DNA from: Planctomycetota bacterium
GTDB taxonomy: Bacteria; Planctomycetota; GCA-002687715; DRQF01
DNA: 64,000 nucleotides
Assembly (NCBI GenBank): GCA_027001995.1
Contig: JALTLO010000064.1
Coordinates: 1 to 64,000, forward strand
Reading direction: 5' to 3'
Each line of letters starts with the position of its first letter. Position 1 is the first letter of the stretch. A program made the position numbers. Positions 39,001 through 42,000 of this stretch are shown here, one piece after another.

Positions 39001-42000
39001 CCTGGTGTCTTCCAAGTCGGAGACGCGAGATTGAAGTTGGGCTGTTCTTTGGTTTACCTTGTGCTCAAGTTGGTTCGAAAGGCGTTCTTGTTCATTGCGG
39101 AGAAAAGCCGACCCAAGAGCTTGAGAAAGAAGTAAGGCCGAGCAGGAAAGGTTGCGGCGTGCTTCTTCTGAGGGCAGAGTCTCACCGTAGATGCCCAAGA
39201 CTCCCAAGAGCCTGCCCGCCGAGAAAAGAGGAAAACCGCAGAACGTTGTCAGGTTGTGTTCTTTGCACCATGACAACTCAGTCTCATAACCTGAGCCTCG
39301 CAACTCATGACAGAAGTGATCGTGTTCATTCTTGCCAACGATCCCAGGAAGTCCTTGGCCGAAGGCCATGTTTGACATCGGGTCCTGGAGGGCTGTTGTT
39401 TCCCCAGCAGAAGCCTCCAGTTGGAGGCAATGGAAAGAGGTTTCACAGGCCGCGGGTTGGGTGCAGTTTGAGCAATGTTTGGTCGATCTGGAAAGCCATA
39501 TCCGTACAACGCTCCTGGGCAGCCGGTCGTCGATGGACCGTACAGCCGCTGAGACGATTTCCACCGCATCTCTTTGGTCCCGCAGGAAAAGGGCGAGACT
39601 TCGAACAATGTCCAAGCATTCGCCTGTTTGGGGCGCGGACATGGCTTACCTCATTTTCAATTCAACCTGCATAAACTATCGGTAAGAATGGGTTTAGCCT
39701 TGACCGGAAATGTCGATGTTTGTGCCTGTGGGCCGTCACTCAGGGCTTGGGCTTCATTCGAGCGACTTGCCGGAAAGTCTTTTCCCATTGAGGTTTCTGG
39801 GTGGTCCAAAGATGGGACGCCAGGATGGGGGGGAGATTTGAAGAGGGATTCACTCTTCCAGCGATCCGACCCGGAAGGTGGGTTGCCAGCTCTCCAGGGG
39901 GATAGCGGAAAGCTTCTGGGTAAATCTCAGGGTAGCTCAAATGGTCGGGGACGATGGGTTCGGCTCCGGCCAAGGCCGCTTCCATTACTGACAAGCCAAA
40001 GAACTCGTGGACCGCGGTAGAAACCACAAAATCTGCTCTGTAGAGGAGGGCTTCGTAGGCCTTGCGATCTTTCACATGACCCCAATGAGTGATGTGTTTG
40101 CTTAGTTTTGATTTGGCTTCGCCAAAAACATCCGGCTGAGTCTTAAACGACTGCCCCAAGACCATCAGCTCAAAGGGGATCTTTTGCTCTTTCAGGTGAA
40201 GAAGTGCGGCGAAGAATTCCTCAGGGTTTTTATCATGCTCCCATCGATGATTCCAAAGGATGACTGGGGGCTGATTCCCGAGAGTGGCGCTCTTTTCTTC
40301 CTTTTTGCCCAGGGGTTGCGTCAGTGCCGGTGGCAGCACCAAGGACTTGGCGGCAACTTTGGCGAGGGAAGATTGCAGGTGAGTGTCGGGGACATCCTTG
40401 AGCACCAGCCCCATGCCCTCCAAGAAGCTGGATCGGTTCCATTCGCTGTTGAAGAGGTTTAAGTCTGCTGCCAAAGCTGTGGTGAAGTTGGTGATGACAA
40501 AGTGGCGGTCGCGGACATCTTCATTGCGACTGGGATAAGCCCATTGATTCTCATGCCAATAGACGATGGCAGGAAGTTGAGCGAACCTCTCGGGGGCTAA
40601 GCCGCGAAAGTCGGCCAAGCTGAGAAAGGTGGAGGCTAAGATGAGGTCGAATTCTTCACCCTCGAGTTTCTCCAAGACTTGAACGAAACTGGGCGCAGAA
40701 AAGCGCATCCGCCACTTCCAAGCTCTGGCCGGTTGGGTGAGTCGCCAGAACTCGAAAGGGAGATGAGCTTCTAAGTCATCGAGGAATCGTTTGTGAGAAG
40801 CGCCATGATAAGGCTCCAGCACCAGGATTCTCATGGGAATTCTGGCAGAACCTCTGGCAGCTCGCTCAGTTCGATGCGCTCGTTGTTTTGGGTCATGATG
40901 AGGAAAGGCTCAATCTCTTCGTTGAAATCTTGAGCGGCTTCCACTTCGGCTTCGTCCATGATGTCTTCGTCACAGGAGTCACCGGGACCAGGGGCGATGA
41001 GGGCTCGTCGATAGCATGCAGCTGCCTCACTCAAGTTGTTCTCTAAGTGCCAGGCAAATCCTTGGTGCAGATGAAACTTTTTGAGGGTCAGAGGATTGCC
41101 CCAAATGTTAATGAGATGCTGGGCACCTTTGAGGGCTTCCGCTGCTTCTTTGAAACGACCCGTCTTAAAAAGGGCATACCCGATGTAATAGAGATTATTG
41201 TTAGCCCAGGTCGGGCTCGCCAAGGCGACGGAGTCGATGTCGGAAACAATCTCGAGTTCTTTGCCGCCGTCTTTGTAACGACCTTCTTTAAGAAGTGTAC
41301 GTGCTAAGAGGAAGCGAGCTCGTACATCTTCTGGATCGTAGGCAACCGCTGCATTGAGGCAGGTGAGTGTTCGCTTGGTGTCATGAGCCATGTAGAAGTA
41401 GAGGGCGACTCGGGTCATAAGGTCGCAATCACTATCGTCTTCATAGCTTTCCCGAAGCTCTGCTAGCTTCTCGCGGATCTTTGCGTCTTTTTCGGCTTTA
41501 TTTTCCATGGGAGCATCATACCTCAAAATGGCAAGAGGGTTCCATGGGGCGAATCTTGGGGAAAATGGCCGTGAATTCTGTTCTCAAAGCCGGGTTCTCC
41601 TGGCTCCCGTGGTTTTAGCGCTGCAATAGCGTTCTACAGTTGATCGTAGAATTCGTCGCTGCCGTTGAGGCCCGCCAAGAAATCATGAAATTCGATTCTT
41701 TCATCACTGACGATGGCAGATTCTGGGCCGATGTGCACGGCCAAGAGTTTTTCGACCACCCAAGGAGACAGCATCAGGTCTCCAGCGGGAGTTGCCAGGC
41801 CCTCGTCGTCGGGGACTTGGAGAATTCCGTGGCGCATGAGGCGGCCATGAGGACTGAGGAGGCGTCTTCTTCGCAGGAGGCCTCGAGGACTGGAGCTCAC
41901 CAGTCGCAGGAGGTCAAGGGGTTCCAATGCCGACGAACCGGCAAATGCTTCTTGGACCAACATGGCCACGACGATGACACATTCGGCATCGGTCAAACCG

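What a model noticed while it worked through the whole genome (the two positions that open the first line are those of the whole stretch)
39740..40834. Bacterial homologue of animal tRNA-queuosine mannosyltransferase QTMAN
Gene g01262 (364 aa) is a full-length, two-domain homologue (QTMAN_N + GT1) of the animal enzyme QTMAN/GTDC1 that mannosylates queuosine-34 of tRNA-Asp. I read it as a bacterial tRNA-queuosine glycosyltransferase, so that this planctomycete (and about 1 in 5 Planctomycetota) would carry a glycosylated queuosine, a modification so far regarded as confined to animals. If true, glyco-Q occurs in bacteria and a small soluble bacterial enzyme becomes available for study and for making manQ-tRNA.
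Evidence so far: swissprot.tsv: best hits are QTMAN of Danio rerio (32% id over 380 aa, E 2e-58) and Drosophila (37% id over 318 aa, E 3e-58). Pfam QTMAN_N (PF12038) + Glycos_transf_1 over the cut. relatives.tsv: PF12038 in 959 of 4992 Planctomycetota, 6871 of 189784 Bacteria, 8 Archaea. 36 of 200 other sampled Planctomycetota genomes, several of them single-contig genomes, have a match at E<=1e-20, 35-48% id. The genome has Tgt (two copies), QueA, QueC, QueF, QueG and PTPS rows and tRNA-Asp GUC (C179:23137-23211, call 21). No solved structure by sequence. Paper searches QTMAN+bacteria (9 papers; the one opened mentions bacteria only as expression host, call 37), GTDC1+queuosine+bacterial (3), DUF3524 (0) fo [...]
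(Added by a program. Inside this text positions count along the whole contig: contig position 1 is position 1 of the stretch shown here. "Call 12" and the like, gene names such as g00115 and contig names such as C1 are that model's own, and its searches are not shown. The text may have been shortened before it was handed on; [...] marks where a part breaks off. The agent that wrote the report below was given it as the finding of a first reader that could run no searches.)

Follow-up and report, generated by a model that had tools for sequence, protein, structure and literature searches.

The report
Bacterial relative of queuosine-tRNA mannosyltransferase
This planctomycete carries an intact relative of the animal enzyme that puts mannose on the tRNA base queuosine, with the substrate pocket residues unchanged, so it probably sugar-coats its own tRNA, but nobody has tested this.

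Summary
The gene is real: window 39740-40834, minus strand, 364 aa. It has a full-length QTMAN_N domain (E 1e-51) and a GT1/GT4 C-domain, with no membrane segment.

New here:
- All 14 residues invariant in 58 bacterial family members are identical in a snail protein that UniRef names tRNA-queuosine alpha-mannosyltransferase. Seven of them lie on the acceptor-side N-domain. 35 of 37 conserved positions match.
- The AlphaFold model (pLDDT 93.9) is a retaining GT-B fold.
- The gene occurs in 67 of 301 sampled Planctomycetota. All 67 have Tgt and 65 have QueA. The two exceptions keep Tgt, QueG and QueC.
- It has no conserved neighbour and does not lie in polysaccharide clusters.

Limits:
- Queuosine genes are nearly universal in the phyla I could reach, so co-occurrence has little power.
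- GluQRS-like genes co-occur with it, so the two are not alternatives.
- The phage relatives are only distant.
- No chemistry exists.

Best reading, about 0.55: a bacterial Q34-tRNA glycosyltransferase.

Databases already name bacterial members. This scan reported the same family at least seven times before on other genomes, each time as plausible but untested. The claim is testable, and it is a new member of a known kind.

The parts
39740..40834 (-). QTMAN-family glycosyltransferase gene (P0001, 364 aa), ATG to TGA
   Evidence: ORF. Pfam QTMAN_N plus Glycos_transf_1. AlphaFold2 model with pLDDT 93.9 and pTM 0.92.
40325..40831 (-). N-terminal QTMAN_N domain (residues 2-170), the presumed acceptor-binding half. 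Motifs: S13-H14, W39-K40-W41-R42, H94-E95-N96-Q97..Y100-P101, F128-N129-S130.
   Evidence: (G000:C64:40325-40831). Invariant columns. The same residues occur in snail QTMAN. In the model the motifs sit directly after strands 2-10, 28-35, 89-93 and 125-128.
39923..40297 (-). C-terminal GT1/GT4-type nucleotide-sugar domain (residues 180-304). Motifs: W194..R197-W-E-H-D201-K202, E277-x7-E285, P293..P296..L299-x-Y301.
   Evidence: PF00534 residues 180-304. for conservation. Foldseek neighbours are retaining GT-B enzymes.
40831..41526 (-). Upstream TPR-repeat protein gene (231 aa). Its TGA stop overlaps the glycosyltransferase ATG (ATGA). Role unknown.
   Evidence: The WHD-TPR-GT order is kept in the sister genus G092. 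It is not seen in the other five planctomycete loci compared there, and TPR is not a recurrent neighbour.
41634..42776 (-). Winged-helix-domain protein gene (380 aa), first gene of the same-strand run. Not shown to be linked in function.
   Evidence: PF22977. Synteny with G092 only.
38116..39642 (-). Downstream GAF-HisKA-HATPase sensor kinase gene, 97 bases after the glycosyltransferase stop. A local neighbour only.
   Evidence: In G092 the gene after the glycosyltransferase is the HMGL-like gene instead.

Best explanation
The gene encodes a soluble, cytoplasmic, retaining GT-B glycosyltransferase of the QTMAN (GTDC1) family. Its most likely job is to transfer a hexose from a nucleotide sugar to a hydroxyl of the cyclopentenediol ring of queuosine at position 34 of one or more GUN-anticodon tRNAs, giving a glycosylated queuosine in a bacterium. 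The sugar is probably mannose from GDP-mannose, as in animals.

Shown here:
- the domain architecture
- a confident GT-B model
- a conserved donor-side motif set (R197, D201, K202, E277-x7-E285)
- an acceptor-side motif set (S13/H14, WKWR 39-42, HENQ 94-97, Y100/P101, FNS 128-130) that sits at the ends of the N-domain strands facing the cleft and is the same in a snail QTMAN
- the organism encoding Tgt, QueA, QueG, QueC and all four GUN tRNAs

Inferred: the acceptor (Q34-tRNA), which tRNA is used, which hydroxyl is modified, the sugar, and the alpha linkage.
For: (1) The QTMAN_N match is full-length, at 175 bits against a cut-off of 25.

(2) In 58 diverse bacterial members, 14 columns are invariant and 21 more are at least 90% conserved. 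All 14 invariant positions, and 35 of the 37 positions I checked, are identical in Biomphalaria QTMAN P0281. Seven of the 14 are in the N-domain, which in GT-B enzymes holds the acceptor (established knowledge).

(3) The model has pLDDT 93.9 and pTM 0.92. Its nearest solved folds are retaining GT-B enzymes such as GlgA, SPS, GlgM, MshA, BshA and PimA, at 10-16% identity. This fits the alpha-mannoside that QTMAN makes from GDP-mannose (passages of preprint 10.64898/2026.06.28.735034, and PMC12518689).

(4) K202 lies in the HRWEHDK motif shared with the snail enzyme. In human QTMAN, a K296A version did not reverse the tRNA-cleavage change of knockout cells (passage).

(5) The substrate can exist: Tgt x2, QueA, QueG, QueC, and tRNA-Asp, Asn, His and Tyr with GUN anticodons.

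(6) All 67 PF12038-positive Planctomycetota have Tgt and 65 of 67 have QueA. The two exceptions have Tgt, QueG and QueC.

(7) No membrane segment: the highest 19-residue hydropathy is 1.28.

(8) The gene stands alone. Among 72 loci there is no conserved neighbour, and another GT4 lies within two genes in only 2 loci.

(9) Animal sequences sit among bacterial ones in a quick tree, with no long separating branch (weak support).
Against: There is no experiment on any bacterial member, and none of the papers I searched or read mentions one.

The co-occurrence evidence is weak. QueA is present in 230 of 234 PF12038-negative genomes as well, so PF12038-positive genomes are not enriched for it.

Of the 80 genomes behind the loci, 6 show no Tgt. 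Two of these (G323, G349) also show no QueA. None of the six is in the high-quality class, so this neither refutes nor supports the reading.

GluQRS-like genes, whose product (as I recall) acts on the same ring of Q34 in tRNA-Asp, co-occur with PF12038: 7 of 67 genomes over the NCBIfam cut-off and 26 of 67 at E 1e-70 or better. The two enzymes are therefore not alternatives, and tRNA-Asp may not be the target.

The N-domain is not markedly basic: pI 6.1 here, family median 7.8.

GT4-type enzymes are known to change acceptor.

The protein is only 44% identical to its syntenic counterpart in the sister genus, while a neighbouring enzyme is 73% identical.
Confidence: 0.55

Rival explanations
1. 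It belongs to the same family but has an unrelated acceptor. The bacterial enzyme would glycosylate a small metabolite, lipid, protein or cell-envelope sugar, as JGI's label 'glycosyltransferase involved in cell wall biosynthesis' suggests. The animal tRNA function would then be a later invention.
For: The nearest solved folds act on small soluble acceptors or lipids: MshA, BshA, SPS, GlgM and PimA. JGI names many members cell-wall glycosyltransferases. No queuosine gene is a conserved neighbour. In the Desulfobulbales-like loci a glycogen branching enzyme lies one to three genes away (12 of 72 loci). LpxB lies within two genes in 2 loci, and a second GT4 in 2 loci.
Against: The acceptor-side motifs are invariant across bacteria and identical in snail QTMAN. 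That is hard to reconcile with a change of acceptor. There is no membrane segment. There are no polysaccharide, flippase or sugar-nucleotide clusters around it in 72 loci. The JGI label is a generic one.
Confidence: 0.25
2. It acts on a 7-deazaguanine compound other than Q34 in tRNA. Candidates are free queuosine or queuine (storage, export or salvage control) and a deazaguanine base in DNA.
For: Distant relatives in phages lie inside 7-deazaguanine gene sets. In Sinorhizobium phage Phosso, the glycosyltransferase (hhalign probability 98.3%, E 2.4e-14 to the family profile) lies two genes from FolE and six from a QueE-like gene. In viral contig L100 the order is FolE, GATase-QueC, an oxidoreductase, then the glycosyltransferase. 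Two earlier scan notes say the same of other phages.
Against: The phage proteins do not match Pfam QTMAN_N and lack the HENQ motif. Only 1 of 15 pattern matches in the viral collection was a relative, and that over the C-domain only. The third phage context seen (Xanthomonas phage) shows sugar genes but no deazaguanine genes within 7 kb. The window gene has no such neighbours. The animal enzyme works on tRNA (passages).
Confidence: 0.12
3. It is a decaying or non-catalytic remnant with no present function.
For: The distribution is patchy (67 of 301). Broken copies exist elsewhere: G211 is split into two frames and G291 is a 43-position remnant with two stops.
Against: The frame here is intact, all invariant residues are present, and the model is confident.
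Confidence: 0.03

Closest known systems
Animal QTMAN (GTDC1), tRNA-queuosine alpha-mannosyltransferase
   Same: Same two-domain layout (QTMAN_N plus a GT1-type C-domain). 33-34% identity to the snail enzyme over both domains. All 14 family-invariant residues are identical, including HENQ, FNS, HRWEHDK and E-x7-E.
   Different: It is shorter: 364 aa against 469 aa in the snail, which has about 100 extra residues between the two aligned blocks. The host makes queuosine itself rather than salvaging queuine. Activity, sugar and tRNA target are untested. The human sequence was not at hand, so the equivalence of K296 is inferred.
Retaining GT-B glycosyltransferases of the GT4/GT5 type (MshA, BshA, PimA, sucrose-phosphate synthase, GlgA, GlgM)
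   Same: Same fold, with Foldseek E 4e-13 to 1e-10 and TM 0.6-0.75. Same C-domain Pfam families. Same E-x7-E motif (the name of the motif is recalled).
   Different: Only 10-16% identity. Their N-domains lack the QTMAN_N motifs. They act on sugars, inositol, malate or lipids.
GluQRS (YadB), the known bacterial enzyme that further modifies Q34 of tRNA-Asp (function recalled)
   Same: It would act on the same base, possibly on the same tRNA.
   Different: It belongs to an unrelated family (a truncated GluRS) and adds glutamate, not a sugar. It was not found in the own genome: the best TIGR03838 match there is 220 bits in a 503-aa frame, read as GltX. It co-occurs with PF12038 in 7 (strict) to 26 (lenient) of 67 genomes.
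Phage glycosyltransferases inside 7-deazaguanine DNA-modification gene sets
   Same: Distant homology to the family profile (98.3% probability). They share the C-domain motifs, including P-x-R-L-x-Y-x-E.
   Different: No Pfam QTMAN_N match and no HENQ motif. They lie beside FolE, QueC and QueE-like genes, which the window gene does not.

Membership tests
QTMAN / GTDC1 family (PF12038 plus a GT1 C-domain) | Full-length QTMAN_N domain above Pfam's gathering score | tested here: met
   E 1.1e-51, 175.5 bits against 25, profile positions 1-167 of 168. Also found by the whole-genome search.
QTMAN / GTDC1 family (PF12038 plus a GT1 C-domain) | GT1/GT4-type nucleotide-sugar domain following it in the same chain | tested here: met
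   PF00534 residues 180-304 at 41.8 bits against 26.4, and PF13692. GT-B model.
QTMAN / GTDC1 family (PF12038 plus a GT1 C-domain) | Family-invariant residues shared with an animal member named QTMAN | tested here: met
   14 of 14 invariant and 35 of 37 conserved positions are identical in Biomphalaria P0281.
QTMAN / GTDC1 family (PF12038 plus a GT1 C-domain) | Lysine equivalent to human K296, proposed to be catalytic | tested here: inconclusive
   K202 is invariant and lies in HRWEHDK, which the snail and rotifer proteins share. K296 is taken from passages of preprint 10.64898/2026.06.28.735034.
QTMAN / GTDC1 family (PF12038 plus a GT1 C-domain) | A Q34-bearing tRNA is available in the same cell | tested here: met
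   Tgt x2, QueA, QueG, QueC, and tRNA-Asp, Asn, His and Tyr with GUN anticodons.
QTMAN / GTDC1 family (PF12038 plus a GT1 C-domain) | [quoted passage not shown] | not testable with these tools
   This needs biochemistry or mass spectrometry.
Cell-envelope or polysaccharide GT4 glycosyltransferases (JGI label) | Lies in a cluster with other glycosyltransferases, flippases, polymerases or sugar-nucleotide genes | tested here: not met
   The window neighbours are a TPR protein, a WHD protein, a sensor kinase, an aspartate kinase and MgtE. Among 245 neighbours within two genes in 72 loci, another GT4 occurs in 2 loci and LpxB in 2.
Cell-envelope or polysaccharide GT4 glycosyltransferases (JGI label) | Membrane anchor or signal peptide | tested here: not met
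   The highest 19-residue Kyte-Doolittle mean is 1.28. This is a crude test, and peripheral membrane binding is not excluded.
Phage deazaguanine-operon glycosyltransferases | Adjacent to FolE, QueC, QueE or TGT-like genes | tested here: not met
   No such genes lie within six genes of the window gene. Among the bacterial loci, FolE is at +2 in only 2 and QueC at -2 in only 1.

The most novel reading that the evidence does not exclude
Glycosylated queuosine is not an animal invention. About a fifth of Planctomycetota, and many other bacteria, would decorate Q34 of their own tRNAs with a sugar using this enzyme, and the animal enzyme would descend from a bacterial one.

Human manQ limits anticodon-loop cleavage of tRNA-Asp (abstract and passages). 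The bacterial sugar could therefore shield GUN tRNAs from anticodon nucleases such as colicin E5-type toxins, which cut next to Q34 (recalled, not checked here). That would explain a patchy, dispensable distribution.
Probability: 0.5. Interest if true: 0.75.

Novelty: new member of a known kind. Interest (0 to 1): 0.5.

Why it matters
Sugar-bearing queuosines are described in the papers I saw as features of vertebrate or animal tRNA (abstracts, passages). If bacteria make them too:
- the modification is older and wider than thought
- its function could be studied in organisms that make queuosine themselves
- a 364-residue soluble enzyme would be available for structural work and for preparing glycosylated tRNA

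The claim is cheap to test. Cultured carriers exist, for example Phaeodactylibacter xiamenensis KD52 (locus L067) and several single-contig planctomycete genomes. E. coli makes queuosine but lacks the gene (control).

Tried and rejected
Co-occurrence as a test. Tgt was found in 67 of 67 PF12038-positive Planctomycetota and QueA in 65 of 67, but QueA is also in 230 of 234 negatives. The test has almost no power.

The two QueA-less carriers (G104, G285) looked like counter-examples. They have Tgt, QueG, QueC and a GluQRS-like gene, so a missed gene is the more likely explanation.

Six Tgt-less genomes among the 80 behind the loci. Four have QueA and two have neither. None is high quality, so the question stays unresolved.

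Mutual exclusion with GluQRS: not found.

Conserved neighbours: none. The largest neighbour cluster covers 12 of 72 loci, in one lineage. Eight of the 80 loci were dropped because my simple ORF picker did not keep the glycosyltransferase frame. RNA- or translation-linked neighbours (QueC, FolE x2, KsgA-type, CCA-adding, RNase T-like, RRM, SmpB, SUI1, EF-G, L28) occur in 10 loci. Without a background rate this is not a test.

Fusions. The search for longer forms found 4 proteins. One is a kinase fusion in a snail gene model. One has an unexplained 354-residue N-terminal extension. One is a rotifer protein. One is a possible 2H-phosphoesterase fusion below Pfam's cut-off.

Phage link. Only distant relatives were found.

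Charge. The N-domain pI is unremarkable.

Promoter and terminator scan. Nothing above chance.

Actinomycetota. The Atlas lists this phylum as the commonest in several clusters, and it would give a sharper co-occurrence test.

Papers. The Cell 2023 paper that defined QTMAN is not held, so what it says about bacterial homologues is unknown to me.

The first cluster look-up gave no eukaryote names.

No complex prediction was run, because I make no binding claim.
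Full report
**The observation**

Window 39740-40834 holds a 364-codon ORF on the minus strand, from ATG to TGA. 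The plus strand over the same span is full of stops.

Pfam finds a full-length QTMAN_N domain: E 1.1e-51, 175.5 bits against a cut-off of 25, residues 2-170 on profile positions 1-167 of 168. A Glycos_transf_1 domain follows at residues 180-304. No NCBIfam model comes near its cut-off, and no solved structure is found by sequence.

The gene is single-copy in its 5.2-Mb, 92%-complete genome. Its strand, which the finding did not give, is minus.

**Surroundings**

The stop of an upstream TPR-repeat gene (40831-41526) overlaps the start codon as ATGA. A winged-helix-domain gene lies before that. A GAF sensor kinase follows after 97 bases.

The WHD-TPR-glycosyltransferase order recurs in the sister genus G092. 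It does not recur in five other planctomycete loci compared.

In that sister genus the glycosyltransferase is only 44% identical, while the nearby HMGL-like enzyme is 73% identical. A promoter and terminator scan gave nothing above chance.

**The family**

The protein has 977 cluster representatives at E 1e-30 or better in the 1.8-billion-protein library, and 1843 scored relatives in the other collection. Sources name them 'DUF3524 domain-containing protein', 'tRNA-queuosine alpha-mannosyltransferase domain-containing protein' or, at JGI, 'glycosyltransferase involved in cell wall biosynthesis'.

An alignment of 58 diverse members has 14 invariant columns: S13, H94, E95, Q97, Y100, P101, N129, R197, D201, K202, G227, G280, E285 and P296. 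A further 21 columns are at least 90% conserved. These form the motifs EPYxGGSH, PARxWKWRMR, YFHENQxxYP, FNS, WNHRWEHDKNPE, HEFFGISxxEA and PxRLxYPE.

**Comparison with animals**

A search for longer forms turned up a snail protein named glycosyltransferase-like domain-containing protein 1, and a rotifer protein. The snail cluster also holds 469-residue forms that UniRef names tRNA-queuosine alpha-mannosyltransferase.

Against one of these (P0281), the window protein is 33-34% identical over residues 3-150 and 163-350. The snail carries about 100 extra residues between the two blocks.

In a joint alignment, all 14 invariant bacterial positions are identical in the snail enzyme, and so are 35 of the 37 conserved positions checked. 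The two exceptions are K40 (Q in the snail) and G290 (D in the snail).

Seven of the 14 invariant positions lie in the N-domain. This is the strongest new evidence: the half of a GT-B enzyme that normally holds the acceptor is unchanged between bacteria and an animal QTMAN.

In a quick tree the animal sequences sit among bacterial ones without a long stem. I give this little weight, because the tree is a FastTree of 62 sequences with weak support.

**Structure**

AlphaFold2 with the 58-row alignment gives pLDDT 93.9 and pTM 0.92.

The N-domain motifs fall directly after strands 2-10, 28-35, 89-93 and 125-128. That places them at the strand ends facing the inter-domain cleft.

Foldseek finds only retaining GT-B enzymes, at 10-16% identity: Pyrococcus GlgA, sucrose-phosphate synthase, GlgM, MshA, BshA, PimA and others.

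A retaining enzyme fits the alpha-mannoside that QTMAN makes from GDP-mannose on the allylic hydroxyl of queuosine (passages). In human cells a K296A version of QTMAN behaved like the knockout in the tRNA-cleavage assay (passages). K202 here sits in the HRWEHDK motif shared with the snail. I infer that it is the equivalent residue but could not map it, because no human sequence was at hand.

**Can the substrate exist?**

The genome has:
- two Tgt genes, 45% identical to each other
- QueA
- QueG
- QueC
- single tRNA genes for Asp, Asn, His and Tyr with GUN anticodons

**Phyletic tests**

PF12038 occurs in 67 of 301 sampled Planctomycetota at least 90% complete.

Tgt is present in all 67. QueA is present in 65 of the 67, and in 230 of the 234 genomes without PF12038. 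There is therefore no enrichment, and the test has almost no power.

The two carriers without a QueA match (G104 and G285, 99% and 97% complete) have Tgt, QueG, QueC and a GluQRS-like gene. They very probably still make queuosine.

Among the 80 genomes from other lineages behind the loci, 74 have Tgt. Of the other six, four have QueA and two (G323, G349) have neither. None of the six is in the high-quality class. These two are the only possible counter-examples, and they cannot be judged.

A GluQRS-like gene co-occurs with PF12038 in 7 of 67 genomes over the NCBIfam cut-off, against 44 of 234 without PF12038. At E 1e-70 or better the figures are 26 of 67 against 105 of 234, and the lenient set includes some GltX matches. 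The two are not mutually exclusive, which slightly weakens tRNA-Asp as the specific target.

**Gene neighbourhood**

In 72 loci from Desulfobacterota, Planctomycetota, Nitrospirota, Bacteroidota, Ignavibacteriales, Verrucomicrobiota, Myxococcota and others, no neighbour is conserved. Eight of the 80 loci were dropped by my ORF picker.

The largest neighbour cluster, a glycogen branching enzyme, covers 12 loci of one lineage.

Of 245 proteins within two genes, another GT4 occurs in 2 loci and LpxB in 2. Queuosine- or RNA-linked genes are scattered over 10 loci: QueC, FolE twice, a KsgA-type methylase, a CCA-adding enzyme, an RNase T-like protein, an RRM protein, SmpB, SUI1, EF-G and L28.

A solitary housekeeping-style gene is typical of tRNA-modification enzymes and untypical of envelope glycosyltransferases. 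That is an impression, not a test.

**Phages**

tblastn against phage records finds only weak matches, mostly to the C-domain.

Two of the three contexts I opened are 7-deazaguanine gene sets:
- In Sinorhizobium phage Phosso, the glycosyltransferase lies two genes from FolE and six from a QueE-like gene. It matches the family profile at 98.3% probability, E 2.4e-14.
- In viral contig L100, the order is FolE, GATase-QueC, an oxidoreductase and the glycosyltransferase.

The third context, a Xanthomonas phage, shows sugar genes only.

These phage proteins do not match Pfam QTMAN_N and lack HENQ. They are a distant sister group and support only a loose link between this wider clade and deazaguanines. 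Two earlier scan notes report the same for other phages.

**Literature**

- 14 papers in the held library contain 'QTMAN' and 5 contain GTDC1 with queuosine. None of the titles and abstract starts listed concerns a bacterial homologue.
- In the two preprints and two papers where I read passages, bacteria appear only as sources of queuine or as expression hosts.
- DUF3524, PF12038 and 'queuosine mannosyltransferase' give no relevant paper.
- The Cell 2023 paper that identified QTMAN is not held, so I cannot say what it states about bacteria.

**Earlier scan reports**

Seven earlier reports describe the same family in other genomes. All conclude that the function is plausible but untested.

**Verdict**

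Homology extends to the residues that should make the acceptor pocket, the fold and chemistry fit, and the substrate can be made. But nothing computable here ties the enzyme to tRNA in bacteria.

My estimates are:

| Reading | Probability |
|---|---|
| Bacterial Q34-tRNA glycosyltransferase | 0.55 |
| Unrelated acceptor | 0.25 |
| Another deazaguanine acceptor | 0.12 |
| Non-functional remnant | 0.03 |

The gene is a new member of a known, already named family. The open biological question, whether bacteria have glycosylated queuosine, is real and cheap to test, which justifies a middling interest score.

Noticed in passing
own genome G000: C135:3878-4930 (+) and C133:93065-94111 (-); outside the window: There are two full-length Tgt genes, 377 and 379 aa, only 45% identical to each other. 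The sister genus G092 also has two full-length matches. A few other genomes do too: G096, G224 and G330, with a weaker second copy in G110. The second copy is not tied to PF12038.
   Followed up: partly
G104 and G285 (Planctomycetota family f55): These genomes are 97-99% complete and have no QueA match by either Pfam or TIGR00113. They do have Tgt, QueG, QueC and a GluQRS-like gene. Either the gene was missed in assembly or QueA has a non-orthologous replacement.
   Followed up: partly
301 sampled Planctomycetota: Short GluQRS-like genes (TIGR03838) pass the curated cut-off in 51 of 301 genomes, and many more score just below it in roughly 320-350-aa frames. None is found in the window's own genome.
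   Followed up: partly
protein P0277 (672 aa, source organism not named): This protein has a QTMAN_N plus GT1 region followed by a C-terminal region with two H-x-T/S motifs (HVTV, HASV). It gives a weak match to the 2H phosphoesterase / 2'-5' RNA ligase family: 25.8 bits against a cut-off of 27. If it is a real gene and not a merged gene model, it would link the family to RNA ends.
   Followed up: partly
L093:6557-7648 (Sinorhizobium phage Phosso); L100:2978-4057 (viral contig): Phage glycosyltransferases distantly related to this family lie inside 7-deazaguanine gene sets (FolE, QueE-like, GATase-QueC). In L100 and in Xanthomonas phage L092 the glycosyltransferase sits next to a GFO_IDH_MocA oxidoreductase.
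   Followed up: partly
G211:C1:1254105-1254603; G291:C24:228-356: Broken copies of the gene exist in otherwise 99%-complete genomes. One is split into two overlapping frames. The other is a 43-position remnant with a TGA and a TAG. This is a sign of ongoing loss.
   Followed up: no
L061, L062, L067, L079 (Scalindua and Saprospiraceae-type loci): An alpha/beta-hydrolase gene lies within two genes of the glycosyltransferase in four loci, and in L061 there is a HAD hydrolase as well. This recalls the HAD plus alpha/beta-hydrolase operons in earlier scan notes.
   Followed up: no
L058:9693-10274 and L082:9670-10254 (two Sedimentisphaerales chromosomes): GTP cyclohydrolase I (FolE), the first enzyme of the preQ0/queuosine and folate pathways, lies two genes from the glycosyltransferase in both. 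In L082 a SUI1 translation factor gene lies between them.
   Followed up: no
window 39740-40834 compared with L094:7956-9089 (G092): The syntenic glycosyltransferases of two genera in the same family are only 44% identical. The neighbouring HMGL-like enzyme is 73% identical and MgtE is 54% identical. The gene evolves fast outside its invariant motifs.
   Followed up: no
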